Shown in pieces: positions 1 to 44,148 of a DNA stretch of 64,000 nt (the stretch's first letter is position 1; the number at the start of each line of letters is the position of its first letter). Under the pieces are notes generated by a model. The model was given only the letters and a program-made list of their open reading frames with translations. It did no database searches and was not told where the DNA came from. Location of the stretch: the NCBI RefSeq assembly GCF_054482595.1, contig NZ_CM137008.1, one strand, 5' to 3'. The position numbers were made by a program, and so were the translations under genes.

Positions 1-1
1 A

Positions 2-4043: not shown

Positions 4044-4059
4044 TTTACGGAGTTATCAC

Positions 4060-4515: not shown

Positions 4516-4518
4516 GCA

Positions 4519-5082: not shown

Positions 5083-5450
5083 AGCGCGGATTTACCTTGC
5101 TGGAAGTGATGCTCGCACTGGCGATTTTTGCGCTGGCTGCCACGGCGGTGTTACAGATTGCCAGCGGTGCGCTGAGTAATCAGCACGTTCTTGAGGAGAA
5201 AACGGTAGCAGGCTGGGTGGCTGAAAACCAGACCGCGCTGCTCTACCTGATGACCCATGAACAACGGGCGGTCAGGCATCAGGGCGAGAGCGATATGGCT
5301 GGAAGCCGCTGGTACTGGCGAACCACACCGCAGAATACAGGCAACGCGCTGCTCCAGGCGGTGGATATTGAAGTCAGCCTTCACGAAGACTTTTCGTCGG
5401 TAATTCAGTCACGACGCGCCTGGTTTAGCGCCGTGGGAGGCCAACAGTGA
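5079..5450 (+). CDS. gspI: Minor pseudopilin GspI
   Basis: N-terminus MKRGFTLLEVMLALAIFALA; 4-bp overlap with gspH. Confidence 0.85.
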   Translation: MKRGFTLLEVMLALAIFALAATAVLQIASGALSNQHVLEEKTVAGWVAENQTALLYLMTHEQRAVRHQGESDMAGSRWYWRTTPQNTGNALLQAVDIEVSLHEDFSSVIQSRRAWFSAVGGQQ

Positions 5451-8201: not shown

Positions 8202-8202
8202 C

Positions 8203-8875: not shown

Positions 8876-8887
8876 CTTAAGAATTAG

Positions 8888-8909
8888 TGGTGCCGGACTC
8901 GGAATCGAA
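8888..8909 (-). repeat. 22-nt remnant of a tRNA-Phe 3-prime end (TTCGATTCCGAGTCCGGCACCA); candidate att repeat of a pheV-type island
   Basis: Minus strand carries the T-loop and acceptor 3-prime strand ending in CCA but no tRNA body; identity to tRNA-Phe is from memory (one G fewer than I recall). Confidence 0.6.
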
Positions 8910-27315: not shown

Positions 27316-27638
27316 TTTTTTGCACGCCCGTATTCAACGGCTTCTTTAAGGAGTTCATTTTCCATCGTTTTTTTGCCGAGCAGGCGCTGGAGTTCTTTAA
27401 TCTGCTTCATGGCGGCAGCAAGTTCAGAGGCAGGAACGACCTGTTCTCCTGCGGCCACAGCAGTAAGACTTCCCTCCTGGTATTGCTTGCGCCAGAGAAA
27501 TAACTGGCTGGCTGCCACACCGTGTTGCCGGGCAACAAGGGAGACTGTCATTCCCGGTTCAAAACTCTGCTGAACAATAGCGATCTTTTCCTGTGTAGTA
27601 CGCCGTCTGCGTTTCTCCGGTCCTAAGACATCAATCAT
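27273..27638 (-). CDS. insC: IS2 transposase OrfA (InsC)
   Basis: [47 protein letters not shown]... matches IS2 InsC as recalled. Confidence 0.9.
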
Positions 27639-28180
27639 CTGCTCTCCAATGACTAGTCTAAAAACTAGTATTAAGACTATCACTTAAATAAGTGATATTG
27701 GTTGTCTGGAGATTCAGGGGGCCAGTCTAGGCGTTGAGTAATGTGTTGATTACCTTAGAGCGCGAAAGTTTGTGGGTATGACAGTACTCATCCACAATTC
27801 GCAGTGTCTCATCACTGGTCATATTGAAAGTTATACGTGTTGTCATGATGAAGTTTTCTGTTAATCATACTGGTTGATATGCATAACATTTCATAAAAAA
27901 TACTGTTAATTCATATAATTGATTTTTTGACTGGTTTTATCCTCGTGTGGTGGAAAGCAGTATTACTGCCACTGTAGTCAGCATAAATCTATCACACAGA
28001 ACCACCGAAAATGAAGCATTGCTCAGGGGGAAGCTGCCACTCGTATGAGTTCTCTGAACCATGATAACCAGTATTTTTCGTTTTGGGTGATTTGTTTATC
28101 GTTACAGCTACATACAGTTCATGTACCATTAAAAAATAATAAAGGTTAATTAGTATTATTTATAGAAGTATGTTTATGTA

Positions 28181-28480
28181 ATTCTACCGTGTAAATGAAC
28201 CCTGTAATTCTACCTTGTAAATACACCTTGTAACCAAGTCCTGTAGAAGTCTGTCTCATAGAGGTATCTGTGCAGTGATATTCTCTGTAGTAGTACTTGT
28301 AACTCTGTTCTTAACTCTCTCTTCAGTAATGTAGTCCCGCAACACCTGAATATAAATCTGTAATGTTCACACACTGACTGTAACGTGCTTTGTTAAGTAA
28401 TGTCTGCTATTTTTTTTCTGTTATTTTTCCTGTTGTTTTCTGTATTTTGTTGTATGGTGTAATAACTATTCTGAACCCGT
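28181..28480. repeat. Array of short phased YTGTA/CTGT-containing repeats in an ORF-poor AT-rich segment
   Basis: Tandem copies of CTGTAATTCTACC(G/T)TGTAAAT at 28181-28225, then recurring CTGTA/TGTAA/CTGTT motifs every 10-13 bp. Confidence 0.4.
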
Positions 28481-29262
28481 CATCACCTTTATAGCTAAGA
28501 GTATGACTTCGCCAGTGTTGATACTGTGGATAACGGTGATTAAGGAATTACTGTTAATGATCTGTTCCTGCAGCTCACCTGATGAGTTTTGGTAGTAATA
28601 CGTAAAAGAGTATGCCTCATGTCATTAAAAAGTCTTCCGGAGTGTTGTTTAACCCTGTACCTCTGTTACTCATGTAGTACGTTGCGGAAAGCTACGTTAA
28701 TTGTAATATCTGGTTATGGCGTTATGCCTTCAGTATTAAAAACATCTTTTACCGGAGAAACTGGGAAGTGGAAAGGCTTTCGGGATAACGTCAGGCCATT
28801 ATGACGATATTACGTTAATCACAGTACAAGATAACGAGAGGGTAATGGAATTTTAAACCAGAGTAGTTCCACTGTTGTTCACTGGAAAAAGTGATTTCCC
28901 ACGCGCGTTATAAGCTTACTCCAGAGGAGATGGAAGCCTTCAACTCTGCGGTCGATCACCGGCTGGCAGAACTGACCATGAACAAACTTTACGATCGTGT
29001 TCCCGCTTCAGTCTGGAAATATGTTACCTGATAAATGTTTCTGATGAAGTACAGTCGTCACAATGACATCACTTCAGATATTATCTGCGCTGTGATTGAC
29101 TGTCACGTATGCCGTTCTCTGTATGGTTCTGATACCCGGGTGTGGTCCCACTTTCTCTGTGGCGCCCGGGGAGTTGTGAACCTGCACGTCTTCGTGTGAT
29201 AACGTTTTCTTCAAAAATTACGCCAGCGCTTCTTCCTGTGTTACAGAACACGAGGAAGAAAC

Positions 29263-29862
29263 ATGAAGACTTACAACACCAATCCCGGTTACGAAATGGA
29301 TCCCCAGCTCCTGACACACTTTAACCAGCATCTGGATTCATTATTCGGGGTATATTCGAAACTGTTACCGTTCAGAATGGATTTTGCTTACCGAAAAAAC
29401 ACCCTCAGCTACAGATGTGCCTGCAGGTACGCCATGTGCGCGGAGATACTGCGACTGATTAACGAAGTGGGAGAGAAACTGGTCGGGTATGCCTGGGTAA
29501 TGGAATATACGGAACGTAAAGGGCTTCACATTCATTTTGTGGGCTATCTGAACGGTCAGAGCCACAGGAGTTCGTATCTGGTATCCAGATTGATGGGAGA
29601 TATCTGGAGGCGGGTTACCGGGGGTGATGGTTACTACCACTGGTGCCGGTTTAATAAAAATTATCCGGTAAACATTAACCACGTCATTCACTATTCAGAT
29701 CACAAAGCGGTGAATGCCTTACGCTATGCCCTCAGCTACCTGGCCAAACGAGAACAGAAAGAATGTGGCATCATCCTGAAATGCAGCGGGCTTCCTGAAA
29801 AAAGTAACCGGGGTCGACCGCGACTGGGCAGCACCCTGCCGGAGACTTATTCTCTGGTGTAA
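29263..29862 (+). CDS. Rep-like protein, putative inovirus Gp2 / YagK-YfjJ family (HIH motif)
   Basis: 199-aa ORF with GAGGAAG RBS; motif GLHIHFVGYLNG; shares a pattern with ORFs at 31511 and 47998. Confidence 0.5.
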   Translation: MKTYNTNPGYEMDPQLLTHFNQHLDSLFGVYSKLLPFRMDFAYRKNTLSYRCACRYAMCAEILRLINEVGEKLVGYAWVMEYTERKGLHIHFVGYLNGQSHRSSYLVSRLMGDIWRRVTGGDGYYHWCRFNKNYPVNINHVIHYSDHKAVNALRYALSYLAKREQKECGIILKCSGLPEKSNRGRPRLGSTLPETYSLV

Positions 29863-30233
29863 GACCCTGAACGACAACTACGGGCTGGCGCTAATTGTTA
29901 CGGTCGGTTCCGGAGGCCACTTCAGGGACTCTGCGCATTTTTTACGACATGGCTATTCCGTATGAACCATACGGAGATTTAACCATGGCACATTCTTTAC
30001 CATTCCTTCCGGCAACCGATACAGCGCATCCTCCGATGTCCATCCCTGCCTGCTGACAGTTTTTTACGCCGGTGGGCCATTGTGTGACAACCACAGTGCT
30101 GTAACAGCAACCAGCCTGCTTTACCCAAACTCCAGTCCAGATTTTAACTGAACCGCCATTCACACCCTGACCACACTGCCCGTACCGGGACAGCTGTTGC
30201 CTGCGTGTCGTCTGGCTGCTGAGGAATATGACG

Positions 30234-30617
30234 ATGTACGCAAAATCCTTTATTGCATTTGATGGCAACGGGCGTCTGACGGGTGCCCGTACCGCACAGA
30301 CTGCACCTTACGATCGCTACACTTGCCACCTTTGCGGCAGTGCGCTCAGATACCACCCGCAATACGACACTGAGCGTCCCTGGTTTGAACACACTGACAA
30401 CGGGCTGACGGAGCACGGTCAGCAGTGCCCTTATGTCAGACCGGAACGCAGGGAGATACAACTGATTAAGCGTTTGCAGCAATTCGTACCGGATGCCTTA
30501 CCCGTGGTGCGTAAAGCCAGCCGGCACTGCAGACAATGTCATCACGATTATTATGGGGAGCGGTACTGCACGCACAGCCATACCGGGCACTTCAGTGAGG
30601 AGGGGGTGGCAGAATGA
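30234..30617 (+). CDS. Cys-rich putative zinc-binding protein (paralog 1)
   Basis: CHLCGSALRYH...WFEHTD and CRQCHHDYYGERYC motifs; ATG 30234 has better RBS spacing than 30228. Confidence 0.5.
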   Translation: MYAKSFIAFDGNGRLTGARTAQTAPYDRYTCHLCGSALRYHPQYDTERPWFEHTDNGLTEHGQQCPYVRPERREIQLIKRLQQFVPDALPVVRKASRHCRQCHHDYYGERYCTHSHTGHFSEEGVAE

Positions 30618-31039
30618 ACGGTATAAAAACGGGGCTGGGGATCACGCCGGGTGAACACATTATCAGTGCTGATTCTGCGCTCAGCAGAAATATCCGGCAG
30701 TGTTTCTGCCTTTCCTGTCATGGCCGGTTGATTTTGCAGACAGATGCTCAGGGGGCGTGGTTTGAGCACGATTTACATGTCCTGAGCGAGCAACAGAAGG
30801 CAGCCTGCGTGGTGCTGAATCCGGAAAAGTCCCACCCTTACATTGAGGATATGGAGATGTTTTTATCGCCATTACCGGTCGTGCTGGAGTGGCATTGTGT
30901 GATGTGTGAGCAGTTTTTTCATGGGAAGAAATTCTGTGAGGCCTGTGGTACGGGGATTTATTGCAGAGCGGTATGTACGAAGTCTGTTTACAGCTACCAG
31001 CCAGACTTGTTTCAGGACTGCGGAGGTGCGAGTACTTAA
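30614..31039 (+). CDS. Cys-rich putative zinc-binding protein (paralog 2)
   Basis: CLSCHGRLILQ...WFEHD and CVMCEQ...CEACGTGIYC motifs; start overlaps the previous stop by 4 bp. Confidence 0.5.
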   Translation: MNGIKTGLGITPGEHIISADSALSRNIRQCFCLSCHGRLILQTDAQGAWFEHDLHVLSEQQKAACVVLNPEKSHPYIEDMEMFLSPLPVVLEWHCVMCEQFFHGKKFCEACGTGIYCRAVCTKSVYSYQPDLFQDCGGAST

Positions 31040-31510
31040 TCCGAAATCTCCGCTCTGCGCAGGGCGTTCAGAGATATCGCAACCTGCATTTTATCCGGTG
31101 TTTCGCACCTGCCCCGTTCGTGACACAAAGGCGTGACACCGGATATCCGCAGTCCTGCTTACCTGAATAAAACCCGGGGTATTGATTGTGTACTGTGGTG
31201 CGAAATCGCACCGTGATCGCGGATTCGCCGAATCCGCACTGTGGTGTCAACCAACCATACGCGAGAGTCCTCTCCGTATTTATCAGTGCCTCAGGACGAT
31301 TTCTGCATAGTTAATCCAGGGGGCTGCATTGTTTATTTCCCTGCTAATGGATGTGACATCCAGGATATTCATGATCCTGATTTCCCTGAGCAGTATCAGC
31401 GCTTATTGGCACGTCTGGATTATCTGACGAAGCCCGATGCTAAAGCATCAGGTCAGCGTAACTCTGGCTACAGCGGTTTTTGACCTGTTGTAACTGTAAG
31501 GTGATTTATT

Positions 31511-32077
31511 ATGTATACAGAATCAAACGTTAAGCTTTCCTGTAACGCCCTCTGGCAAAAGTGTGTCCTTGCAACTCTGTATCGGGCTGCAGCCACACAT
31601 CCTGAAATTAAATTATTACAATTTAAATTAATACCAGGACAGGGTATTAATAAGGCCATTCCCTCTCTGATGGCTGATTTTACTGGTGAACTGCATAGAC
31701 TCATTTCTGAATATTTGCAGTGTAAGCGACGTAAAGATAAATCTGTTGAGCCCACCCCTTTATATTATCTCTGGAGTAGGGAGGCTGTGGCTAACGATAC
31801 CACTCCTTATCTTATGGTGCTGCTACTTAATAACGATGTCTGGTGTAAGAGTCGTGAGGTGGTGGTTCTCAGAAATCTGATTGAGCAGGCGTGGGGAAAA
31901 GTATTGGGTGAAGATAACTCCATTACACATCTGGTTGTGTATCCTGAAGTGCTGTCGTTGGTATTTGATGCAGCTAACACATACAACGCTGAGCCTGGTG
32001 TACTGGAACAGACGGCCCAGGCTTACATTGAATCGCATGGTGCCATTGAACGTCATCTTGGGTGTAGTGACTTTTAA
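31511..32077 (+). CDS. Hypothetical protein, second Rep-like (Gp2-family-like) paralog
   Basis: 188-aa ORF with pattern GINKAIPSLMADFTGELHRLISEY...PYLMVLLLNND resembling the 29263 and 47998 ORFs. Confidence 0.45.
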   Translation: MYTESNVKLSCNALWQKCVLATLYRAAATHPEIKLLQFKLIPGQGINKAIPSLMADFTGELHRLISEYLQCKRRKDKSVEPTPLYYLWSREAVANDTTPYLMVLLLNNDVWCKSREVVVLRNLIEQAWGKVLGEDNSITHLVVYPEVLSLVFDAANTYNAEPGVLEQTAQAYIESHGAIERHLGCSDF

Positions 32078-32407
32078 CGTCAGGTGATGCATAAGGGCCT
32101 TTCGCTGAGAGGCCCTGTTTACACAATTAAATAAATCGAGCCCGACCAACAATTTTGATGTTAACAGCAGGATTATTGAGGGGCAATCAATGTGTTCTTC
32201 GGTAGCGATTACGGTAGTGAACGGACCTGCTGTCTGAATGGCATCGATCCGCAAGCGTATCGGCGCCATATTCTGAGCGTACTACTGAAATGGCTAATGG
32301 CAGTAAAGAGAGACTTTACGTATATTTGCATAAAGCAGGATTTTACGACTAGTCAACATTCTTTATAATTCTTCAGGTTCAGAGTATCTGACATATAGGG
32401 TTATGTA

Positions 32408-33124
32408 TTGGGGAGACATTTAATGTTTGGCCATCTGTTACGATACTTTAGTTTCTGTAAAAAAGATTTATTAGTATTTCATCCTGAATCTGATTACTCA
32501 GATAATTTACATAAAGCCTTCTCTTTTACAAAAAGGCTAGGATTTAATGAAGAATGGAATGGGGTCACAAAAAACAAAGAATATGATTATCAGGATGTCT
32601 TCAGTCATGTCTGTCTGCAGTCTGGTGTGACAGACTTTTCCGCTTCAGCAGGACAATGCTTAAAGTGGAGTCATTATTTTCAGCCATATTTTGAGAATAT
32701 CCTTGAATGTCGGGTATGGGTTACCGTTGGACAACTCTGGAAACAGGAACGATTTATTTACAATCCGTCAGTTGCGGATTTTCAGCGCTGGTCTGAAAAA
32801 GGGATTCAGCCTGAAGATTTTAGACATCACTCGGGGTTTAACTTTCATGCGTGGTTGACGACGGAAAATGGTGTGATTGTGGATGTTTCCTTTATGAGTA
32901 CGTTATCGCGGCGATTACCTGAACACCTGAGTGAAGTCAGTGGAAGTGTGATTATTGGCACGCCAGAGACGGTTCTTCCTGAGTATAAATATGTTCCCAT
33001 GATTGTCGGTCAGAGGATTGTTGAGAAAATAGAAAAACGCTCTTTCATTGGTTTTCTGGCGCACGACGATATTGATTTATATACAGTACCTGCAATCTTG
33101 GTTCCGGTATGGAAAGAATGTTAA
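32408..33124 (+). CDS. Hypothetical protein (238 aa), ORFan
   Basis: Long ORF in AT-rich DNA with balanced protein-like composition; no recognisable motif. Confidence 0.45.
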   Translation: MGRHLMFGHLLRYFSFCKKDLLVFHPESDYSDNLHKAFSFTKRLGFNEEWNGVTKNKEYDYQDVFSHVCLQSGVTDFSASAGQCLKWSHYFQPYFENILECRVWVTVGQLWKQERFIYNPSVADFQRWSEKGIQPEDFRHHSGFNFHAWLTTENGVIVDVSFMSTLSRRLPEHLSEVSGSVIIGTPETVLPEYKYVPMIVGQRIVEKIEKRSFIGFLAHDDIDLYTVPAILVPVWKEC

Positions 33125-33443
33125 AGCACGGAATAACACTATGCACTTACCGCTTTCCGGAACTCAGCTTGTTACCTGAGCGGTCAACAGAGCAGTCTTT
33201 CAGTGTCTGCACTTGGTTGCCACTAAACCGGAGTCATTTATCAGAAGTATATGTTCATGGAAGGATATTGTCAGCGCCAGTGATATAAGACGGTAATGAG
33301 GATAGCCATCCCGCATGGGTTTCCTCAACACTGGTCACTGTGACAAGCGCACCATGATCGTCTTTGTATCGCTGATTGACTTTCGATAATAGAACATCTT
33401 CTGACATAAATTTTAGTACGGTAACAATTAACTAAATTTTCAT

Positions 33444-33710
33444 GTGGTAGCACTGAATCAGGAGACTGCGTTTCCTGATGTGTGCTTCTGCAGCCGTTAC
33501 CGGATACAGACTTCGATACCAGTTACTTCGACATCCGCCATGTGTCCTGGGACCCGCTATAACGAAGTTGGAGGTAATCAGTACAGCGTTCCCGAAATGC
33601 TGTGTGGTCAGCCAGTCTCGATACGAATATCGCTGAACGATGAGTTGCGGATCTACAGTAATGAGAAACTGGTGGCCTCACATCGCCTCTGCTCAGTGTC
33701 GTCTGGCTAG
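33444..33710 (+). pseudogene. IS21-family transposase (IstA) C-terminal fragment
   Basis: YSVPEMLCGQPVSIRISLNDELRIYSNEKLVASHRLC resembles the IstA C-terminal domain; no N-terminus or istB follows. Confidence 0.5.
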
Positions 33711-33799
33711 CAGATAGTACCGGAACCTCACGCCCCGCTCTGGCAGCAGATCAGTCAGGTGGAACATCGACCACTGAGTGCCTATGAGGAGCTGTTGTG

Positions 33800-35520
33800 A
33801 TGCATGTGTCAACGACGGATGAAAGTGGCTCTTCCGCAACCTGGGTGGAGATTTTCATGCCAGTGGACTCATTACCCTCTGCCTGAGTAGTTCAAATCCT
33901 GCTCGACCATACATCTGGCGTTTCAGCATCTTCAGGCGATTTACATGACCTTCGACAACACCATTACTCCAGTGACTACTGATTGCCTCACATATAGCTG
34001 CAGCATCAGCTTCCATCCCCGCCGCCACGCGCCGAAATTCTGCTGAACCGCTTTCGTGGACTCGAGTGAACCAACTGCTTAGCTGTGATTTATTTTGGGT
34101 TTTCAGAATACGGTAGAACTCGAGTGCCAGTTGCTGCGCTATTTTCAGCTCAGGTTCTTTTTCACACATCAGACTAATAAATCGGGAAGCATAATTTTCT
34201 TCATCCCTGGTTATTCTCCAGGGCATCAACCAGCGGCTTACCCGGGACACTGAAGGAAGTCTGACGGCAGTAGTAACCGGTGGGTTCCAGCCTTTACGCC
34301 ATTTGGCAACCGCATCCCTGACGATGGTTTCACTGCCTGTAAATCCCCGGGCCACCATTTCCCGCCATATCCGGCTGGCGTTATAATTACCACTTTCTCG
34401 TTGCTCTTTTAACCACTCCCTCCATGGGTCCAGAAGCCCTCGCTTTGGCGGTCGGGTTGACATTTCAGGGAATGTTCCTGAACGCACCCAGCGACTGACT
34501 GTCACACGCGACAGGCCTGTAATACGGGATATTTCCCTGAAACTACATCCCTTGTTATGCAGGGCCATAACCTCTGTCCAACGCTGATGCCGTTTTTTGC
34601 GGGTTTGTTGTTTTAGGCGTTCCGGACGACGGAGCGATGCTGCAGGCACAGATGGTTCTGGATCAGGTGATTTCTTTGGTGACAACTCACTGGCAACAAG
34701 ACGTATCAGAGGTATATGTCTGTACATCATTCGTTCAGGCGCATCGCCAATATTTTTTAGCAGATGCCATCGATCGGCCACCTGTCTGGCCTGAGGTGCA
34801 CCTTCACGTGCTGCTGTCGCATAGACTCCACTGCGATCACGCGAGACAATCTGTATTTCCGGATATTTTCTGAACCAGGTCGCCAGCGTACGCTGATCAC
34901 GGCCGGGAAGCAGGACGAGGGGAGGGTGAGTATCAAGATTGACGATTAACGTACCGTAACGGTGGCCCCGATGCCACGCCCACTCATCAATACCGACATG
35001 AGGCGAGCCTGACTGTTTCGTCTCCGGGGTATTGATAACCCTGCGAAGGAGAGTATCAGCACTGCAACGGAGACCCACTGCCGTTGCTGCCCGTTTCCCG
35101 GCCTCACCTCCGGCGATTAATCCCAGTTGACGTTGTAAATTTTGTAACGCCTGTGAAGACTGTTGGTGTGAACCGGCGAAGGGAGCAAGCGACTCGGCAA
35201 AAATTTTACGTGAACAAGCCGGGTTACGGCAGTACCAGTGGCGGACAGAAAATACAAGCCATAGCGTATGTCCTGAGCAGGGTAGATGCTGTATCCGGCG
35301 CCGACGACAACTATGAACAGAGTCGCTACGCTTAAAGCATTCAGGACATTGTGCTGTTTTGCGTTTTCCGTGGAGATGGAGGGTTATACCGTCAGAGCTA
35401 ATAATTTGTCGACTGCATCGCCATCCGCAAGGTAACTGTAGAAGTGTCTTAAGAGAGTGCATTGCGTTGCCCATGACTTAAAACAGCTTAGATCTTTGTT
35501 CACCAGAAAGTTTCATCCAT
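33800..35520 (-). mobile_element. ISL3-family insertion sequence (approximate ends)
   Basis: Contains a single 539-aa ISL3-type transposase gene; element ends were not mapped. Confidence 0.5.
33855..35474 (-). CDS. ISL3-family transposase
   Basis: N-terminal Cys-rich zinc-finger region, central DDE region and C-terminal SNGVVEGHVNRLKMLKRQMYGRAGFELLRQRVM. Confidence 0.8.
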   Translation of the reverse strand: MGNAMHSLKTLLQLPCGWRCSRQIISSDGITLHLHGKRKTAQCPECFKRSDSVHSCRRRRIQHLPCSGHTLWLVFSVRHWYCRNPACSRKIFAESLAPFAGSHQQSSQALQNLQRQLGLIAGGEAGKRAATAVGLRCSADTLLRRVINTPETKQSGSPHVGIDEWAWHRGHRYGTLIVNLDTHPPLVLLPGRDQRTLATWFRKYPEIQIVSRDRSGVYATAAREGAPQARQVADRWHLLKNIGDAPERMMYRHIPLIRLVASELSPKKSPDPEPSVPAASLRRPERLKQQTRKKRHQRWTEVMALHNKGCSFREISRITGLSRVTVSRWVRSGTFPEMSTRPPKRGLLDPWREWLKEQRESGNYNASRIWREMVARGFTGSETIVRDAVAKWRKGWNPPVTTAVRLPSVSRVSRWLMPWRITRDEENYASRFISLMCEKEPELKIAQQLALEFYRILKTQNKSQLSSWFTRVHESGSAEFRRVAAGMEADAAAICEAISSHWSNGVVEGHVNRLKMLKRQMYGRAGFELLRQRVMSPLA

Positions 35521-35547
35521 TTTCTTCCACCCAAGTTGCGGAAGAAC

Positions 35548-35590
<43 letters not shown>

Positions 35591-35859
35591 TACACCAGCG
35601 AAACCACACAGGTAGCTATTACCATATGTGGTAATACACTAGTTACAGGAAAAACATGCAGGTTCCGCAATACGTTGTGTGTTGCTGCTTAGTCAGGATC
35701 TTTTCTTCCATGCGAGATACGACAACACTTTTGAGGAAAGATGTTCACAACTGGTGGGGCGATTGCAACAGGTTTGTGCAGAACTCCCCCCGGATGGCAA
35801 TGCAGGGGGGAAAGGATTTTTCAGGTTGACCGCCCAGGTACATCAAATCAGTATGCTGC

Positions 35860-36585
35860 TCACGCCTGACGGTGCGATGAGTAATGTATTTCATACTCTT
35901 CCCGGTAGAGAGTTTCCCCCCAAAGAACCGGTTTATTCTCAGCAGTCAAATAAGTATGTTGTCGTACCAGAATTGGGCGGGAACGCTTTATTTTCAGCTT
36001 CTGGGCCGCATCCCGGCTGGGCAGCGCCACATGAACCTGGTTGGCAATTGTCTGTATCTCTATGCGAAGTGCCTGCTCAAAAATGTTTTGCAACGCATGG
36101 ACTTCCAGTTCCTGCTTATCTATTTGCAGGGCAAGAATTGAAGGCATATAACGAATTTCGAATGCAATTGGCTGCTGATTTATCAAGCGCAACCTTAACA
36201 GCCGATGGATGCTCTCTTTGCCTGATAACATCAGTTTTGTCCGTAAGAGTTCTGACGTTGAGACAGGTGCGAATTCGACGAGTTGATATTCGAGGTGTTT
36301 GTCGACACCAACCAGATCTTTTTCAAAAAATCCAAGAGATTGCGTATCCATTACGGTGATAATGGAAGGTTTTTTAACGAAGGTTCCACGTCCCCGAATG
36401 CGTTCAATCAATCCATCCGTAAGAAGACCCTGCATCGCATGGACCACTGTCGCTCGGGTGGTATTAAATTGGGCTGCAAGTTCGTTTTCAGAAGGTAAGC
36501 GTTCGCCTTGTTTATATACATTTTGTGCTATTCCATTGCGTAATGCTTCTCTGATCTGCAGGTAAATTGGCAAATTGCGATGCAT
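35860..36585 (-). CDS. GntR-family transcriptional regulator (HutC/UTRA-type)
   Basis: N-terminal winged HTH (LPSENELAAQFNTTRATVVHAMQGLLTDGLIERIRGRGTFV) and a C-terminal effector domain; divergent from the amidohydrolase gene. Confidence 0.85.
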   Translation of the reverse strand: MHRNLPIYLQIREALRNGIAQNVYKQGERLPSENELAAQFNTTRATVVHAMQGLLTDGLIERIRGRGTFVKKPSIITVMDTQSLGFFEKDLVGVDKHLEYQLVEFAPVSTSELLRTKLMLSGKESIHRLLRLRLINQQPIAFEIRYMPSILALQIDKQELEVHALQNIFEQALRIEIQTIANQVHVALPSRDAAQKLKIKRSRPILVRQHTYLTAENKPVLWGETLYREEYEIHYSSHRQA

Positions 36586-36613
36586 GTCAAATTAATCCTT
36601 CATTCTAAGTTGC

Positions 36614-36625
36614 ATAGTCAACTAT
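36614..36625. promoter_or_regulatory. Palindrome ATAGTCAACTAT in the divergent intergenic region; candidate GntR operator
   Basis: Perfect 5-2-5 inverted repeat containing a GT...AC core, between the regulator and the amidohydrolase gene. Confidence 0.3.
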
Positions 36626-36707
36626 ACAACTTCAAGGGTGACGGTATGTCATTTTAGCAGATATCACCTTCAGGTGTGGTCAGTTAAACATAAATGAGTT
36701 AGAGAAA

Positions 36708-37505
36708 ATGATTTTTGATACGCATGCGCATGTTTTTGTTCGAGGATTACCATTAGCGGAACATTGCCGATATGTTCCTGATTACGACGCCACACCGGAG
36801 AGTTATCTGACTCACTTGGATCGGTTTGGCATTGATGTTGGTATTCTGGTGCAACCCAGTTTTCTGGGGACGGATAACCACTATATGCTTGAGGCTCTTC
36901 GCCGTTACCCTACCCGGTTTCGTGGTGTAGCCGTTGTGGATCCAAACATTACGCGCTGTAAACTGGATGAAATGGCAAAATTAGGGGTCACTGGTATCCG
37001 CTTAAATTTAGTCGGCGTGGAAATTCCCGATCTTACGCAACCTGCATGGCAACACCTGTTAGAACATATTAAAGCCCTGGGATGGCATGTTGAGCTACAC
37101 AGAGCTGCGCGCGACTTGCCAGCGTTAATTACGGTATTACTTAAATCCGGTGTAAAGATTGTCGTTGACCATTTCGCGTTGCCTTCTCAGGAAGAGAAAC
37201 AAAACGATCCCGGATTTCAGTTTCTCCTTGAGCATGCAGAAACGCAGCAAATCTGGTTGAAACTTTCTGGCGCCTATCGCAATGGCAGTACTGAAACTCT
37301 CAACGATAACGTGGCACCGTTAATTCCTCTCCTGCTGCAGCATTTTGGACCTGCACATTTATTGTGGGGTAGCGACTGGCCACATACTCGATACGAAAAT
37401 GTCGTCAATTATCAAAAAACGTTCGAGTTACTGACGCAGCAAATACCTGATAAAGAAATGAGAAATAAAATTTTATCGGTTAGTGCAGAATCACTTATCG
37501 ATTAG
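36708..37505 (+). CDS. Amidohydrolase-2 family metal-dependent hydrolase (lactonase/decarboxylase-like)
   Basis: 265 aa with N-terminal HAH (MIFDTHAHVF) and C-terminal GSDWPH motifs typical of TIM-barrel amidohydrolases. Confidence 0.8.
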   Translation: MIFDTHAHVFVRGLPLAEHCRYVPDYDATPESYLTHLDRFGIDVGILVQPSFLGTDNHYMLEALRRYPTRFRGVAVVDPNITRCKLDEMAKLGVTGIRLNLVGVEIPDLTQPAWQHLLEHIKALGWHVELHRAARDLPALITVLLKSGVKIVVDHFALPSQEEKQNDPGFQFLLEHAETQQIWLKLSGAYRNGSTETLNDNVAPLIPLLLQHFGPAHLLWGSDWPHTRYENVVNYQKTFELLTQQIPDKEMRNKILSVSAESLID

Positions 37506-37536
37506 TTGGATTGAGAATATAGTCGAAAGGTATATC

Positions 37537-38886
37537 ATGAGCATATTTTATAAAAAAAGCTGGTACAAGTGGATTGTATTGGTGGTTTGTATTCTTGCCT
37601 ATTCATCAGGAAACCTGGTGCGCTGGAATTATACGGGAATATCGCAATATCTTATTGGTGAATGGCACATTGGAAAAGAAGAATTGGGGATCCTTGGTTC
37701 CGCATTCTTTTATGCCTACGCGATTGGGCAAAGTCCCTGGGGAACACTTACCGATATATTAGGCGGACGCAGAGTTATTTCTATCGGTATTTTAATTACC
37801 GCTATTATGTTCTCTCTCTTTGCTTTTGCGGGTGGCTACCATGCCGCTATCATCATTCGAGTATTAATGGGATTTGTTGGGGCGGCAACATTTGTGCCTT
37901 GTATGGCGGTACTTTCTCGCTGGTTTAGTAAAAAGGAGCGAGGTATGGTGCTGAATATCTTCTCTGGCACAGGTGGTGGATTAGGTGAGCTGTGGTCCTT
38001 TTTATTAATGCCATTGATTTCATTATTTATGGTAGGCGGCGCTACCGTGCTTGGCCTGAGCTCCTGGCGTGCATCTACGCTAATTATGGCGTTTGTCACA
38101 CTGGCGATCATGATCCTCTGTTTTGTCGGTATGCGCTCCGACCCGTCGGAATTAGGTCTTCCGTCCGTTGTTGAACAGGAGACGCGTAAGCAGGCGAAAG
38201 AACATAGCTATGCCAGGACACTGCTTAATGCGTTGCGCGATCCGTGGTTCTGGGTCATTACATTCGCCTGGCAAGGTTTTACCGTTTCTCTGCGTCTGCT
38301 ACCGGCCTGGTTGCCTATCTATGCGGCAGCTTACTACAAACAGACACAGGGATTATCCAGCGTTGAGGCGATGGTCGCAGGAGGTATGATAGCATCAGTG
38401 TATGTTGCCGGACGTATTTTGGGAACGCCTGTCTTTGGCAAATTATCTGACTTTTTGCTTGTCAGTTATAACGTACCAAGAACATTGATTATTGCTTGCT
38501 TCCATATCTTTATTACCGTCTCAATGTTTGCTCTTAGCCATCAAATGCCTTCCACATTTTTATTTGCAGTTCTGGTTTTTGTGATTGGTGCCGCGATAAA
38601 TATGTTCCCTCTGGTTAATGCAGTCGTCGCAGAAATCTGGCCGGTTAAAACGGGGGGCGCGTTAATGGGGATGGTGAATACGGTTGGGCAGTTAATAGGT
38701 GCCTCAGCGTTGGCCTACAGTGGTTTTATGGCAGAAAAATTTTCCATAGCCGGAGCAGGATACAGTTTTGAGTATCGTGGCATTTGGTATTTGGCAATGA
38801 TATTCAGTTCAATATCTATCCTGGCGTCTCTGTTGGCGATGCATCGCGAAAAACAAAGTATTCGGGAAAATGCCTTGAGTCATTAA
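37537..38886 (+). CDS. MFS transporter
   Basis: About 450 aa with roughly 12 hydrophobic segments; ATG at 37537 preceded by AAAGG. Confidence 0.85.
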   Translation: MSIFYKKSWYKWIVLVVCILAYSSGNLVRWNYTGISQYLIGEWHIGKEELGILGSAFFYAYAIGQSPWGTLTDILGGRRVISIGILITAIMFSLFAFAGGYHAAIIIRVLMGFVGAATFVPCMAVLSRWFSKKERGMVLNIFSGTGGGLGELWSFLLMPLISLFMVGGATVLGLSSWRASTLIMAFVTLAIMILCFVGMRSDPSELGLPSVVEQETRKQAKEHSYARTLLNALRDPWFWVITFAWQGFTVSLRLLPAWLPIYAAAYYKQTQGLSSVEAMVAGGMIASVYVAGRILGTPVFGKLSDFLLVSYNVPRTLIIACFHIFITVSMFALSHQMPSTFLFAVLVFVIGAAINMFPLVNAVVAEIWPVKTGGALMGMVNTVGQLIGASALAYSGFMAEKFSIAGAGYSFEYRGIWYLAMIFSSISILASLLAMHREKQSIRENALSH

Positions 38887-38891
38887 GCATA

Positions 38892-39947
38892 ATGTTTAAT
38901 CATATATTTACCCAGGTCAAACGTTCAGAAAATAAAAAAATGGCGGAAATCGCCCAATTCCTGCATGAAAATGATTTGAGCGTTGACACCACTGTCGAAG
39001 TATTTATTACCGTAACCCGCGATGAAAAGCTTATCGCGTGCGGCGGAATTGCCGGAAATATTATTAAATGCGTTGCTATCAGTGAATCCGTTCGCGGTGA
39101 AGGACTGGCGCTGACATTAGCCACCGAACTGATAAACCTCGCCTATGAGCGGCACAGCACGCATCTGTTTATTTATACCAAAACCGAATACGAGGCGCTG
39201 TTCCGCCAGTGCGGTTTTTCCACGCTGACCAGCGTCCCCGGCGTGATGGTGCTGATGGAAAACAGCGCCACGCGACTGAAACGCTATGCCGAATCGCTGA
39301 AAAAATTTCGTCATCCAGGGAACAAGATTGGCTGCATTGTGATGAACGCCAATCCCTTTACGAATGGTCACCGTTATCTGATTCAACAGGCTGCGGCACA
39401 GTGCGACTGGTTGCATCTGTTTTTAGTCAAAGAAGATTCTTCACGCTTCCCCTATGAAGACCGGCTGGATCTGGTGTTAAAAGGCACCGCCGATATTCCA
39501 CGCCTGACCGTGCATCGCGGCTCCGAATACATCATCTCCCGCGCTACGTTCCCTTGCTACTTCATTAAAGAACAGAGCGTCATTAACCATTGTTACACCG
39601 AAATTGATCTGAAGATTTTCCGTCAGTACCTCGCTCCCGCGCTGGGTGTAACTCACCGCTTTGTCGGTACTGAACCCTTTTGTCGCGTTACCGCCCAGTA
39701 CAACCAGGATATGCGCTACTGGCTGGAAACGCCGACTATCTCCGCACCGCCCATCGAACTGGTTGAAATTGAGCGGCTGTGTTACCAGGAGATGCCGATA
39801 TCCGCTTCCCGGGTACGCCAACTGCTGGCGAAAAACGATCTCACGGCTATCGCGCCGCTGGTCCCTGCAGTCACGCTGCATTATTTGCAGAACCTGCTTG
39901 AGCACTCCCGCCAGGACGCGGCAGCTCGTCAAAAGACCCCCGCATGA
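38892..39947 (+). CDS. citC: Citrate lyase ligase CitC
   Basis: Sequence (…VKRSENKKMAEIAQFLHENDLSVDTTVEVFITVTRDEKLIACGG...) matches E. coli CitC as recalled; start codon choice is uncertain. Confidence 0.88.
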   Translation: MFNHIFTQVKRSENKKMAEIAQFLHENDLSVDTTVEVFITVTRDEKLIACGGIAGNIIKCVAISESVRGEGLALTLATELINLAYERHSTHLFIYTKTEYEALFRQCGFSTLTSVPGVMVLMENSATRLKRYAESLKKFRHPGNKIGCIVMNANPFTNGHRYLIQQAAAQCDWLHLFLVKEDSSRFPYEDRLDLVLKGTADIPRLTVHRGSEYIISRATFPCYFIKEQSVINHCYTEIDLKIFRQYLAPALGVTHRFVGTEPFCRVTAQYNQDMRYWLETPTISAPPIELVEIERLCYQEMPISASRVRQLLAKNDLTAIAPLVPAVTLHYLQNLLEHSRQDAAARQKTPA

Positions 39948-39961
39948 GAAACAGGTGAAAA

Positions 39962-40258
39962 ATGAAAATAAACCAGCCCGCCGTTGCAGGCACCCTTGAG
40001 TCTGGGGATGTGATGATACGCATCGCCCCACTCGATACGCAGGATATCGACCTGCAAATCAACAGCAGCGTTGAGAAACAGTTTGGCGATGCCATTCGCA
40101 CCACCATTCTGGACGTTCTCGCCCGCTACAACGTGCGCGGCGTACAGCTGAATGTCGATGACAAAGGCGCACTGGACTGCATTTTACGTGCACGACTGGA
40201 AGCCCTGCTGGCACGCGCCAGCGGTATCCCGGCTCTGCCATGGGAGGATTGCCAATGA
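39962..40258 (+). CDS. citD: Citrate lyase acyl carrier protein CitD
   Basis: 98 aa ([42 protein letters not shown]...). Confidence 0.9.
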
Positions 40259-41163
40259 TTTCCGCTTCGCTGCAACAACGTAAAACTCGCACCCGCCGCA
40301 GTATGTTGTTTGTACCTGGTGCTAATGCCGCGATGGTCAGCAACTCCTTCATCTACCCGGCTGATGCCCTGATGTTTGACCTCGAAGACTCCGTTGCATT
40401 GCGTGAAAAAGACACCGCCCGCCGCATGGTTTACCACGCGCTGCAACATCCGCTTTATCGCGATATTGAAACCATTGTGCGTGTAAACGCGCTGGATTCC
40501 GAATGGGGTGTTAACGACCTGGAAGCCGTCGTTCGCGGTGGTGCGGACGTTGTGCGTCTGCCGAAAACCGATACCGCTCAGGATGTTCTGGATATCGAAA
40601 AAGAGATCCTGCGTATCGAAAAAGCCTGTGGTCGTGAACCCGGCAGTACCGGCCTGCTGGCGGCGATTGAATCTCCGCTGGGCATTACCCGCGCGGTAGA
40701 AATCGCTCACGCTTCCGAGCGTTTGATCGGTATCGCCCTCGGTGCAGAAGACTATGTGCGCAACCTGCGTACAGAACGCTCCCCGGAAGGAACTGAACTG
40801 CTGTTCGCTCGCTGCTCCATTTTGCAGGCCGCGCGTTCTGCGGGTATTCAGGCGTTCGATACCGTCTATTCCGACGCTAACAACGAAGCCGGATTCCTGC
40901 AAGAAGCCGCCCACATCAAACAGCTGGGCTTTGACGGCAAATCGCTGATCAACCCGCGTCAGATTGATCTGCTGCACAACCTCTACGCACCGACCCAGAA
41001 AGAAGTGGATCACGCCCGCCGCGTCGTAGAAGCCGCTGAAGCCGCCGCTCGCGAAGGCCTCGGCGTGGTTTCCCTGAACGGCAAGATGGTGGACGGTCCG
41101 GTTATCGATCGCGCCCGTCTGGTGCTCTCCCGCGCAGAACTTTCCGGCATCCGCGAAGAATAA
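40255..41163 (+). CDS. citE: Citrate lyase beta subunit CitE
   Basis: Start [34 protein letters not shown]...; overlaps citD stop (ATGA). Confidence 0.9.
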
Positions 41164-41173
41164 GGCAATCAAA

Positions 41174-42706
41174 ATGACGCAGAAAATTGAACAATCTCAA
41201 CGACAAGAACGGGTAGCGGCCTGGAATCGTCGCGCTGAATGCGATCTTGCCGCTTTCCAGAACTCGCCAAAGCAAACCTACCAGGCTGAAAAAGCGCGCG
41301 ATCGCAAACTGTGCGCCAACCTGGAAGAAGCGATTCGTCGCTCTGGTTTACAGGACGGCATGACGGCTTCCTTCCATCACGCTTTCCGTGGCGGTGACCT
41401 GATCGTCAATATGGTGATGGACGTCATCGCGAAGATGGGCTTTAAAAACCTGACTCTGGCCTCCAGCTCCCTGAGTGATTGCCATGCGCCGCTGGTAGAA
41501 CACATTCGCCAGGGCGTGGTTACCCGCATTTATACCTCTGGCCTGCGCGGTCCACTGGCGGAAGAAATCTCCCGTGGTCTGCTGGCGGAACCGGTGCAAA
41601 TCCACTCTCACGGCGGACGTGTGCATCTGGTACAGAGCGGCGAACTGAATATCGATGTGGCTTTCCTCGGCGTCCCGTCCTGTGATGAATTCGGTAATGC
41701 CAACGGCTACTCCGGTAAAGCCTGCTGCGGCTCCCTCGGCTATGCAATGGTTGATGCCGACAACGCAAAACAGGTCGTGATGCTTACCGAAGAACTGCTG
41801 CCTTATCCGCATAATCCGGCAAGCATTGAGCAAGATCAGGTTGATCTGATCGTCAAAGTTGATCGCGTTGGCGATGCTGCAAAAATCGGCGCTGGTGCTA
41901 CCCGTATGACCACTAACCCGCGCGAACTGCTTATTGCCCGTAGCGCTGCGGATGTGATTGTTAACTCTGGCTACTTCAAAGAAGGTTTCTCTATGCAGAC
42001 CGGCACCGGCGGCGCTTCGCTGGCGGTAACCCGTTTCCTGGAAGACAAAATGCGTAGCCGCGATATTCGCGCCGACTTCGCCCTCGGCGGTATTACCGCA
42101 ACGATGGTTGATCTGCACGAAAAAGGTCTGATCCGCAAACTGCTGGATGTGCAGAGCTTTGACAGCCATGCTGCGCAATCGCTGGCCCGTAACCCCAATC
42201 ACATCGAAATCAGCGCCAACCAGTACGCTAACTGGGGGTCGAAAGGCGCATCGGTTGATCGTCTCGACGTGGTGGTACTGAGTGCGCTGGAAATTGACAC
42301 CCAGTTCAACGTTAACGTGCTGACCGGCTCTGACGGCGTACTGCGTGGTGCTTCCGGTGGTCACTGCGATACCGCAATTGCCTCTGCGCTTTCCATCATC
42401 GTCGCGCCGCTGGTACGCGGTCGTATTCCGACGCTGGTGGATAACGTGCTGACCTGCATCACCCCGGGCTCCAGTGTCGATATTCTGGTCACAGACCACG
42501 GCATCGCTGTTAACCCGGCACGTCCGGAGCTGGCAGAACGTCTGCAGGAAGCGGGGATCAAAGTGGTTTCTATTGAGTGGCTGCGTGAACGTGCGCGTCT
42601 GCTGACCGGTGAACCACAGCCGATTGAATTCACCGACCGCGTCGTTGCCGTTGTGCGTTACCGCGATGGCTCGGTGATCGATGTTGTGCATCAGGTGAAG
42701 GAATAA
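41174..42706 (+). CDS. citF: Citrate lyase alpha subunit CitF
   Basis: 510-aa ORF in operon position after citE. Confidence 0.9.
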   Translation: MTQKIEQSQRQERVAAWNRRAECDLAAFQNSPKQTYQAEKARDRKLCANLEEAIRRSGLQDGMTASFHHAFRGGDLIVNMVMDVIAKMGFKNLTLASSSLSDCHAPLVEHIRQGVVTRIYTSGLRGPLAEEISRGLLAEPVQIHSHGGRVHLVQSGELNIDVAFLGVPSCDEFGNANGYSGKACCGSLGYAMVDADNAKQVVMLTEELLPYPHNPASIEQDQVDLIVKVDRVGDAAKIGAGATRMTTNPRELLIARSAADVIVNSGYFKEGFSMQTGTGGASLAVTRFLEDKMRSRDIRADFALGGITATMVDLHEKGLIRKLLDVQSFDSHAAQSLARNPNHIEISANQYANWGSKGASVDRLDVVVLSALEIDTQFNVNVLTGSDGVLRGASGGHCDTAIASALSIIVAPLVRGRIPTLVDNVLTCITPGSSVDILVTDHGIAVNPARPELAERLQEAGIKVVSIEWLRERARLLTGEPQPIEFTDRVVAVVRYRDGSVIDVVHQVKE

Positions 42707-42709
42707 GTC

Positions 42710-44123
<1,414 letters not shown>

Positions 44124-44148
44124 ATCATTAATATATCCGGAGTTAACT

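What the first reader, a model, noticed from the sequence alone, without database searches (positions are those of the whole stretch)
33444..35530. IS21 remnant abutting an ISL3-family element at the junction between island cargo and core-like genes
A C-terminal IstA fragment without istB sits directly beside an ISL3-type transposase gene. To the left is AT-rich island cargo; to the right a GntR/amidohydrolase/MFS module and core metabolic genes. This is a likely IS-mediated rearrangement breakpoint.
Basis: partly seen in the sequence, partly recalled or inferred. Interest (0 to 1): 0.3.

Follow-up and report, generated by a model that had tools for sequence, protein, structure and literature searches.

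The report
Three nested insertion sequences inside island
The flagged spot is a pile-up of three known jumping genes nested inside one another, deep inside a large E. coli genomic island and not at its edge; the middle one (IS100) has been hollowed out by the innermost one (ISEc38), and this turns out to be what ISEc38 does almost everywhere it is found.

Summary
Window 33269-35594 is a three-level nest. An IS21-like remnant (29-bp left terminus, 189-bp filler, last 313 nt of istA) was hit at the start of istB by IS100. Only 20 bp of IS100's right end (33807-33826) and 46 bp of its left end (35549-35594) survive. They bracket an intact 1,722-bp ISEc38 (ISL3 family, 33827-35548). None of the three has a target duplication.

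The junction is not island versus core. K-12 homology ends at 8909 (pheV 3' repeat). The GntR/amidohydrolase/MFS module occurs in only 31 of 5,426 complete E. coli genomes, and island DNA runs past 64000. The true breakpoint is the outer IS100 left terminus (35594|35595), where other genomes diverge.

Unexpectedly, about 90% of distinct ISEc38 contexts sampled (isolates and metagenomes) sit at the same register of IS100's terminal repeats, just outside a GATCCA motif. Most lie between two outward-facing IS100 termini with the interior gone. Rare simple insertions there carry 8-bp duplications.

As submitted, the finding is ordinary. The ISEc38/IS100 targeting is a modestly interesting side result.

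The parts
8887..8909 (-). Copy of the last ~23 nt of tRNA-Phe (pheV). This marks the distal boundary of the genomic island; core gspD-gspM/yghD lies at 1-8738.
   Evidence: blastn of the window against K-12 MG1655 stops at 8909, inside the pheV 3' end. gsp annotation comes. No intact tRNA is in the window.
33269..33297 (+). Left terminus (29 bp) of an IS21-like element.
   Evidence: 29/29 identical to the left end of the annotated IS21 on pSF-166-1, L005 2040-2068.
33298..33486 (-). 189-bp filler replacing about 930 bp of IS21 interior. It contains the 5' part of a DUF4222 gene (pseudogene) and its upstream DNA.
   Evidence: RefSeq pseudogene annotation. Window 33317-33486 matches DUF4222 genes in many genomes. 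There is no IS21 similarity.
33487..33806 (+). IS21-like istA 3' fragment (pseudogene), including the istA stop and the first 6 nt of istB.
   Evidence: Pfam Mu-transpos_C_2 at E=4.4e-11. 91.9% nt identity to IS21 L005 3001-3319. RefSeq note reads 'frameshifted; internal stop; missing N-terminus'.
33807..33826 (-). IS100 right-end terminus (outer part of repeat R1, 20 bp; one A missing from the canonical 21-mer TGTCAACGACGGATGAAAAGT).
   Evidence: Sequence comparison with annotated IS100 copies. The same IS21'|IS100 junction, with IS100 interior still attached, is present in strain EC0880B.
33827..35548 (-). ISEc38 (ISL3 family), 1,722 bp. Right inverted repeat (IR) 33827-33849, left IR 35526-35548, intact transposase gene 33855-35474.
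   Evidence: Ends are confirmed by independent copies that carry 8-bp duplications. The protein is 5 aa different from the variant found in multi-copy strains.
35549..35594 (-). IS100 left end, 46 bp (repeat L1 plus the outer part of L2). The junction with ISEc38 lies immediately outside the second GATCCA motif.
   Evidence: 45/46 identity to IS100 positions 1-46. Other genomes diverge exactly at 35594|35595.
35595..35772 (+). 178-bp orphan fragment of an unrelated island module. Elsewhere it lies upstream of an ilvN-pseudogene/DeoR/rbsK/fucP cluster.
   Evidence: 161 bp are shared with 1,243 genomes by megablast, and 178 bp by sensitive blastn. In those genomes the sequence continues leftwards across the point where IS100 abuts it here.
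35860..38886 (.). Accessory GntR regulator (35860-36585, minus), amidohydrolase (36708-37505, plus) and MFS transporter (37537-38886, plus). A second citCDEFXG-acnB set follows.
   Evidence: Pfam hits. RefSeq annotation. Present in 31 of 5,426 genomes.

Best explanation
The locus is a dead-end nest of three insertion sequences that marks a seam between two cargo modules of a pheV-type genomic island.

Inferred order of events:
1. An IS21-like element inserted into the island. Much of its interior was later replaced or lost.
2. IS100 inserted, in minus orientation, a few nucleotides into istB of that element.
3. ISEc38, which normally makes 8-bp duplications, integrated into the IstA-binding terminal repeats of IS100, at the fixed position just outside a GATCCA motif. 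Here it hit repeat R1 on one side and repeat L2 on the other.
4. The 1,888-bp IS100 interior (positions 47-1934) was lost. This happened either by recombination between two directly oriented ISEc38 copies or by an ISEc38-mediated adjacent deletion. The result is a single intact ISEc38 bracketed by outward-facing IS100 termini.
5. Separately, the IS100 copy (or its left terminus) took part in a rearrangement that placed an unrelated 178-bp fragment and the GntR/cit/acnB module against its outer left end.

What is shown: the anatomy, the absence of duplications, the order IS21-like then IS100 then ISEc38, and the general ISEc38 preference for IS100 ends. What is inferred: the route by which the interior was lost and the event at the outer left terminus.

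Today only ISEc38 is potentially mobile. IS21' and IS100' are inert.
For: Anatomy.

Order of events: strain EC0880B carries the identical IS21'|IS100 junction with 377 bp of IS100 interior and no ISEc38.

Both ISEc38 junctions keep exactly the 8 bp that would be the outer copy of a target duplication. These are IS100 right-end positions 14-21 and left-end positions 39-46 counted from the termini. That pattern is expected if each junction was made by ISEc38 strand transfer and not by random deletion.

ISEc38 makes 8-bp duplications when it inserts simply: fliN TATTTAAT, IS66 tnpC ACTTTCAG next to GGATC, a 36-bp IS100 right-end remnant ACTTTTCA, and IS100 L1 with interior present ACTATTGC.

Intermediates with IS100 interior on one side exist: the SMBL chromosome (IS100 1-1941 then ISEc38-like) and plasmid Sx181.

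Generality: 15 of 17 distinct isolate contexts are at IS100 termini. So are about 19 of 21 distinct metagenome contexts, one of them at another TGT-ended terminus of unidentified origin.

Breakpoint at 35594|35595. The 178-bp fragment is continuous across that point in other genomes.

Island context.
Against: No genome was found with an intact IS100, or with ISEc38 plus IS100 interior, at this exact locus with both flanks. The interior-loss step is therefore inferred from other loci.

The window-type and ST3-type genomes share the same ISEc38/L2 junction but have different DNA outside the 46-bp left end. This needs either recombination across only 46 bp, recombination within ISEc38 between two independently targeted copies, or end activity supplied in trans. 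I could not tell which.

Searches for reciprocal junctions found nothing exact.

Contexts with two right-type termini (R1/R1) cannot arise from a single IS100 and require additional recombination.
Confidence: 0.8

Rival explanations
1. One reading: an IS21 remnant and an ISL3 element abut at the boundary between horizontally acquired island cargo and core chromosomal genes, marking where an IS-mediated event joined island to core.
For: ISEc38 lacks a duplication and its flanks are not contiguous anywhere. GC content is lower to the left.
Against: Island DNA runs from 8910 to beyond 64000 relative to K-12. The right-hand module is in 31 of 5,426 genomes and is followed by IS66 remnants and further accessory modules. 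The immediate flanks of ISEc38 are both IS100.
Confidence: 0.05
2. The shell consisting of IS100 termini plus ISEc38 (1,788 bp in this copy, ~1.76 kb in the commoner 21-bp/21-bp form) arrived here ready-made, mobilised as a unit by IS100 IstA/IstB supplied in trans. It was not formed in place.
For: Two other contexts have 5-6-bp direct repeats outside the IS100 21-mers (CCTCC and CCTCCG), the size IS21-family elements make (PMC10122671). IstA can pair two right ends in vitro, which would fit R1/R1 shells.
Against: At this locus the IS21'|IS100 junction exists elsewhere with IS100 interior attached, so the right terminus was already here. There is no 5-bp repeat around the shell here. IstA of IS5376 needs two complete repeats per end in vitro, and most shells keep only 21 bp. 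The repeats at the other two loci are equally explained by an intact IS100 that was later gutted in place.
Confidence: 0.1
3. One-step replacement: the ISEc38 transpososome used two IS100 ends held together (for example synapsed by IstA) as a split target. One ISEc38 end joined each IS100 end, so the interior was discarded in a single event.
For: Every shell keeps the outer 8 bp at both junctions. R1/R1 combinations are frequent, and IstA pairs like ends in vitro. Small deletions recur at positions 13-16 of the 21-mers, at the outer edge of the 8-bp stagger, hinting at irregular gap repair.
Against: There is no precedent that I know of. Ordinary simple insertions with duplications into the same sites exist, so a two-step route is sufficient. 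This was not testable here.
Confidence: 0.05

Closest known systems
ISEc38 (ISL3 family insertion sequence of E. coli)
   Same: About 99% nt identity to copies annotated as ISEc38. 1,722 bp, GG(C/T)TCTTCC-type terminal repeats, 539-aa DDE_Tnp_ISL3 transposase with an N-terminal zinc ribbon.
   Different: This copy has no 8-bp target duplication, because each end abuts a different end of IS100. It carries a private S4A change.
IS100 (IS21 family; istA/istB)
   Same: Terminal 20 bp (right) and 46 bp (left) match annotated IS100 copies, with TGT...ACA tips in the correct inverted arrangement.
   Different: No istA or istB: 1,888 bp of interior are missing. No 5-bp duplication, and the two outer flanks are unrelated.
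IS21
   Same: 29-bp left terminus at 100% identity and the last 320 bp of istA through the istB start at 92% identity.
   Different: About 930 bp of interior are replaced by 189 bp of unrelated DNA. istB and the right end are absent, so this is a remnant.
IS4321/IS5075 (IS1111 family), which target the terminal inverted repeats of Tn21-family transposons (from my own knowledge; not checked here)
   Same: An IS that integrates at one fixed position inside the terminal repeats of another mobile element and thereby disables it.
   Different: Those use a DEDD transposase, insert in one orientation and make no duplication. ISEc38 is a DDE/ISL3 element, makes 8-bp duplications, is seen in either orientation and often ends up replacing the host element's interior.
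pheV/pheU-associated mosaic genomic islands of E. coli
   Same: Bounded by a pheV 3'-end repeat. Carries a CP4-like backbone (Ag43, CbtA/CbeA, YagK/YfjJ) and metabolic modules separated by IS debris. The same island body sits next to cadC (pheU side) in strain Santai.
   Different: Nothing unusual for this class. The window shows only the distal part; the integrase/tRNA end lies beyond 64000.

Membership tests
ISL3 family / ISEc38 | Transposase with a DDE_Tnp_ISL3 domain and an N-terminal zinc ribbon | tested here: met
   PF01610 at E=4e-34 and PF14690 at E=1.8e-6. RefSeq name ISEc38.
ISL3 family / ISEc38 | Terminal inverted repeats of the GGCTCTT type at both ends of a 1.2-2.3 kb element | tested here: met
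   21/23 repeats at 33827-33849 and 35526-35548; 1,722 bp. Other copies end at the same bases.
ISL3 family / ISEc38 | 8-bp direct target duplication | tested here: not met
   ATGAAAGT vs TGATTTCA at this copy. The feature is met at other copies, so the family assignment stands and the absence here reflects later loss of one side.
IS21 family (IS21-like remnant) | IstA transposase gene | tested here: inconclusive
   Only the C-terminal ~100 codons are present, with a frameshift and stop. This is enough to identify ancestry but not a functional member.
IS21 family (IS21-like remnant) | istB helper gene and both terminal repeats | tested here: not met
   istB is reduced to 6 nt. The left terminus is present and the right terminus is absent.
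IS100 (IS21 family) | TGT...ACA termini with multiple IstA-binding direct repeats | tested here: met
   The outer part of R1 (20 bp), and L1 plus the outer part of L2 (46 bp), are present in inverted arrangement.
IS100 (IS21 family) | istA/istB genes and a 5-bp target duplication | tested here: not met
   The interior is replaced by ISEc38. Flanks are ATGCA vs CCAGC.
Island/core boundary | One flank conserved at this position across the species, with tRNA or att repeat at the junction | tested here: not met
   The right flank is in 31 of 5,426 genomes. The real boundary, with the pheV repeat, is at 8887-8909. No tRNA is in the window.
Target-specific IS (inserting into another element's terminal repeats) | Independent insertions at the same register of the target sequence, with normal insertion hallmarks | tested here: met
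   Junctions lie directly outside GATCCA at IS100 L22, L47 and R22, and at R56 in a Klebsiella relative. Four simple insertions carry 8-bp duplications, three of them at GGATC-adjacent sites.
Target-specific IS (inserting into another element's terminal repeats) | Experimental demonstration of target choice | not testable with these tools
   Needs transposition assays.

The most novel reading that the evidence does not exclude
ISEc38 and its relatives may be specialised hunters of IS100-type elements. They recognise the IstA-binding repeat (…A(A/T)AGT|GATCCA) that occurs twice at each IS100 end, and integrate there. Through a second hit they delete the IS100 interior, leaving ~1.76-kb shells that keep IS100 tips. 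One IS would thereby systematically inactivate another, and might still be moved by IstA/IstB supplied in trans. The window's copy would be one such shell, an unusual one that used repeat L2. The weaker claim, a strong sequence-specific target preference, is very likely true (about 0.85). The probability given here is for the full version, with systematic gutting as a biological strategy and/or trans-mobilisation.
Probability: 0.3. Interest if true: 0.55.

Novelty: new member of a known kind. Interest (0 to 1): 0.3.

Why it matters
For the window itself the value is correct annotation. The island/core boundary is 24.5 kb away. The 'IstA fragment next to ISL3' is really IS21' < IS100' < ISEc38. 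The recombination seam lies at the IS100 tip.

More generally, the survey suggests that ISEc38, which is widespread in E. coli and routinely listed in resistance-genomics reports, almost always lives inside IS100 ends and destroys IS100 in the process. If that holds, it is a clear natural case of one insertion sequence preying on another. It explains why ISEc38 copies usually lack target duplications. It also warns annotators that short IS100 tips flanking ISEc38 are meaningful landmarks of past IS100 copies and of the rearrangements they mediated.

Tried and rejected
1. I first assumed the whole window was colinear with strain Santai and read its cadABC/pheU annotation onto window 1-21000. 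Direct comparison showed the match starts only at 8878, and the window carries an extra 1.3-kb IS at 26400-27730. The left end is in fact gspD-gspM next to pheV.

2. I tested whether the true element is 1,764 bp with 44-bp inverted repeats, with the IS100-like 21-mers being part of ISEc38. This is rejected: copies in fliN, IS66 and IS100 remnants have 8-bp duplications directly at the 1,722-bp ends.

3. I searched for a pre-existing 42-bp palindrome (two abutted 21-mers) as an empty target. There was no match in 5,426 genomes.

4. I scanned one genome per species for the ISEc38 terminal repeat. It returned only a chance hit in a planctomycete and was uninformative.

5. I searched for the reciprocal products of the presumed IS100 rearrangement: the IS100 right end next to the left continuation of the 178-bp module, and the IS100 left end next to IS21 istB. 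Neither exact junction was found. Twelve genomes have an IS100 42 bp further along, and three plasmids have IS100 elsewhere in IS21.

6. I tested whether the ST3-type arrangement is a simple deletion derivative of the window type. The MarR-side flank is not in the window or in the continuation of the Santai island, so this is not supported.

7. Literature: 28 papers mention ISEc38, all of the 15 listed being resistance or pathogen genomics surveys. A search for ISL3 plus IS100 targeting found nothing relevant.

8. The 226-aa ORF 35679-36359 antisense to the GntR gene has no family match and is treated as spurious.
Full report
WHERE THE WINDOW LIES

The window is E. coli chromosome. Positions 1-8738 are the core type II secretion genes gspD to gspM/yghD. 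Homology to K-12 MG1655 ends at 8909, inside a copy of the last ~23 nt of pheV. In K-12, pheV lies only 148 bp from yghD. Everything from 8910 to the end of the window is therefore a pheV-type genomic island.

The same island body, 99.6-100% identical from 8878 onward, sits next to cadC (the pheU side) in strain O157:H16 Santai. There it continues for about 27 kb beyond the window's end before an integrase gene. The window contains no tRNA gene. The finding at 33.4-35.5 kb is about 24.5 kb inside the island.

CHECK OF THE OBSERVATION

The IstA fragment is real. ORF 33444-33710 hits Pfam Mu-transpos_C_2 at E=4.4e-11. At the DNA level, 33487-33806 is 91.9% identical to the last 313 nt of istA of an annotated IS21, including the overlapping stop/start TGATG and 6 nt of istB.

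The ISL3 element is real. It encodes an intact 539-aa transposase on the minus strand (33855-35474) with DDE_Tnp_ISL3 at E=4e-34 and the ISL3 zinc ribbon. RefSeq names it ISEc38 in identical loci. Its ends are 33827 and 35548, giving 1,722 bp with 21/23 inverted repeats. Hundreds of other copies align to exactly these end points.

The 20 bp between the IstA fragment and ISEc38 (33807-33826, TGTCAACGACGGATGAAAGT) are the outermost bases of the right end of IS100. The 46 bp on the other side of ISEc38 (35549-35594) are the first 46 bp of the left end of IS100, in the matching inverted orientation. ISEc38 therefore sits where the 1,888-bp interior of a minus-strand IS100 should be.

The IS21-like remnant also begins earlier than reported. 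Its 29-bp left tip is at 33269-33297 (29/29 identity). It is followed by 189 bp of unrelated DNA that includes the 5' part of a DUF4222 gene.

To the right of the IS100 tip lies a 178-bp orphan piece (35595-35772). It belongs to a different island module found in about 1,240 genomes, where the sequence continues leftwards across the point at which IS100 abuts it here. Then come the GntR regulator, amidohydrolase and MFS genes and a second citCDEFXG-acnB set.

NO ELEMENT HAS A TARGET DUPLICATION

- ISEc38: ATGAAAGT vs TGATTTCA.
- IS100: ATGCA vs CCAGC.
- IS21-like: the right end is missing.

The two ISEc38 flanks joined together are found contiguous in none of 5,426 complete genomes.

THE JUNCTION IS INSIDE THE ISLAND, NOT AT ITS EDGE

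The GntR/amidohydrolase/MFS block is present in only 31 of 5,426 genomes. It is followed by IS66 debris and further accessory modules.

WHERE THE REARRANGEMENT BREAKPOINT LIES

Twenty-six genomes carry the ISEc38/IS100-left-end junction.

- In 17 of them the DNA continues as in the window.
- In at least seven (for example strain ST3, where the island is at pheV) everything from window 26262 to 35594 is shared. The sequence then switches to a MarR gene and, about 5 kb on, the integrase and pheV.

The seam is thus the outer tip of the IS100 left end, 35594|35595. It is not the ISEc38 ends or the IS21 remnant.

ORDER OF EVENTS

Strain EC0880B has the identical IS21'|IS100 junction (…GTGATGCA|TGTCAACGACGG…). 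There IS100 continues for 377 bp into its interior and no ISEc38 is present. IS100 therefore entered the IS21-like element first, and ISEc38 came later and in place.

WHY ISEc38 LACKS A DUPLICATION, AND A GENERAL PATTERN

I examined other ISEc38 copies to test its end points and found a consistent picture.

Simple, evidently recent insertions have 8-bp duplications:
- fliN in strain M8 (TATTTAAT);
- an IS66 transposase gene in SK6988 (ACTTTCAG, preceded by GGATC);
- a 36-bp IS100 right-end remnant (ACTTTTCA);
- IS100 repeat L1 with IS100 interior present (ACTATTGC) in metagenome contigs.

Most copies, however, lie between two outward-facing IS100 tips of about 21 bp. The right-end type is TGTCAACGACGGATGAAAAGT and the left-end type is TGTCACGAACGGTGCAATAGT. 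They occur in right/left, left/right or right/right combinations, with the IS100 interior gone.

Counting distinct flank contexts:
- 15 of 17 from isolate genomes are at IS100 ends;
- about 19 of 21 from an unbiased metagenome scan for the ISEc38 end are at IS100-type ends, one of them at another TGT-ended terminus of unidentified origin.

IS100 has four GATCCA motifs in its terminal repeats, at left-end positions 22 and 47 and right-end positions 22 and 56. ISEc38-clade junctions are seen immediately outside all four:
- L22 and R22 are common;
- L47 is the window's right junction;
- R56 occurs in a Klebsiella plasmid relative with 73% aa identity, which like another relative (74%) is flanked by diverged IS21-family tips.

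Intermediates with IS100 interior on one side exist: the SMBL chromosome (IS100 1-1941 then an ISEc38-like element) and plasmid Sx181.

In every shell, the 8 bp next to each ISEc38 end are the outer copy of what would have been the duplication. Each junction was therefore made by ISEc38 integration, and the interior was lost precisely between two ISEc38 ends.

MECHANISM, AND WHAT IS SHOWN VERSUS INFERRED

Shown:
- the three-level nest and the insertion order;
- the seam at the IS100 tip;
- ISEc38's 8-bp duplications;
- its strong bias for one register of IS100's terminal repeats.

Inferred (confidence about 0.6 for the route): ISEc38 inserted at R1 and at L2 of this IS100. The interior was then removed by recombination between two direct ISEc38 copies or by an ISEc38-mediated adjacent deletion.

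A one-step split-target integration into synapsed IS100 ends is not excluded. Trans-mobilisation of ready-made shells by IstA/IstB is suggested by 5-6-bp repeats outside the tips at two other loci (CCTCC and CCTCCG). It is unlikely for this locus because of the EC0880B evidence. It is also unlikely in general because IstA of IS5376 needs two complete repeats per end in vitro (PMC10122671). That paper also reports 5-bp duplications and pairing of two like ends.

How the unrelated 178-bp fragment came to abut the IS100 tip is not resolved. Nor is it clear why window-type and ST3-type genomes share the inner junction but differ outside a 46-bp end. Reciprocal junctions were not found.

COMPARISON WITH KNOWN SYSTEMS, AND NOVELTY

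All three elements are catalogued IS, and RefSeq already annotates the ISEc38 transposase and the 'Mu transposase domain' pseudogene here. IS nests and IS-mediated seams in pheV/pheU islands are commonplace. As submitted, the finding is ordinary and partly misread.

The habit of ISEc38 to settle in, and hollow out, IS100 ends was not found in the searchable literature. It resembles the known targeting of Tn21-family terminal repeats by IS4321/IS5075 (my own knowledge), with a different transposase class and outcome. I rate it a new member of a known kind of behaviour, of modest specialist interest.

CAVEATS

- Contexts sampled through protein look-ups and metagenome contigs are not phylogenetically independent, although I de-duplicated by outer flank.
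- Many metagenome contigs end inside the IS, so only one flank is seen.
- No experiment supports target choice.
- The window's exact source strain is not in the complete-genome set. It differs from all 17 closest loci by one base at 35465.

Noticed in passing
window 26400-27730: A 1,331-bp IS3-family element (ORFs of 136 and 301 aa, IS2-like by size) is present in the window but absent from the otherwise identical island in strain Santai. In strain ST3 the same element is itself split by another IS3.
   Followed up: partly
window 8878-64000 vs NZ_CP007592.1: The same island body (>99.6% identical) lies next to yghD/pheV in the window's genome but next to cadC/pheU in strain Santai. pheU and pheV offer the same attachment sequence, so the island (or a large part of it) has occupied both sites.
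   Followed up: partly
window 38892-46746: The island carries a second citCDEFXG citrate-lyase cluster fused to an acnB copy, downstream of the GntR/amidohydrolase/MFS genes. The whole block is rare (31 of 5,426 genomes) and is bounded on the right by IS66 debris.
   Followed up: no
L012 (NZ_CP103508.1 1895776-1897497) and about 2,800 other genomes: A 95%-identical ISEc38-like pseudogene copy sits at a similar chromosomal position (~1.8-2.0 Mb) in many of the listed genomes; about half of complete E. coli genomes carry a near-full-length copy. It too is sandwiched between IS100-type 21-mers (left-type/right-type), so the association is old.
   Followed up: partly
flanks of ISEc38 in window 33807-33826, L010/L016, L019, L021, L024, L110: Small deletions (1, 3, 4 or 8 nt) recur at positions ~13-16 of the IS100 21-mers. 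This is the outer edge of the 8-bp stagger, and the 5 bp next to ISEc38 are always kept. It may be a footprint of irregular gap repair and is unexplained.
   Followed up: no
L074 10043-10069 and L110 (metagenome contigs): ISEc38 abuts another TGT-ended terminus, TGTCCAGACCCGCTGTTGTGAGAAAGT, which is neither IS100 nor the IS21 copy examined. ISEc38 may also target the ends of a further IS21-family element.
   Followed up: partly
L050, L051 (Klebsiella pneumoniae plasmids pBIC-1a and CP082800): ISL3 relatives with 72-74% aa identity to the ISEc38 transposase are present on more than 1,000 Klebsiella plasmids in the collection. In the two copies examined, the flanks are diverged IS21-family tips, one with a 56-bp right end (junction at the fourth GATCCA-equivalent site).
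   Followed up: partly
window 35595-35636 region; 12 genomes incl. NZ_CP115984.1 ~4356790: In 12 other genomes an IS100 is inserted 42 bp further into the same 178-bp module. This short stretch has therefore been hit by IS100 at least twice independently.
   Followed up: partly
window 33298-33486: About 930 bp of the IS21-like element's interior are replaced by 189 bp carrying a DUF4222 gene fragment, leaving a 29-bp IS21 tip. How this replacement arose is unknown. There is no GATCC motif at the junction, so it does not look like ISEc38's work.
   Followed up: no
window 35465: A single base (C here, A in Santai (direct comparison); all 17 window-type loci show one mismatch to the window in this 146-bp stretch) changes transposase residue 4 from Ser to Ala. 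Because of it the exact protein is not on record in the large protein collection.
   Followed up: yes
window 30228-31039: Two adjacent paralogous genes encode DUF7828 plus zinc-ribbon proteins, next to YagK/YfjJ-domain genes. This is typical CP4-57-like island backbone of unknown function.
   Followed up: no
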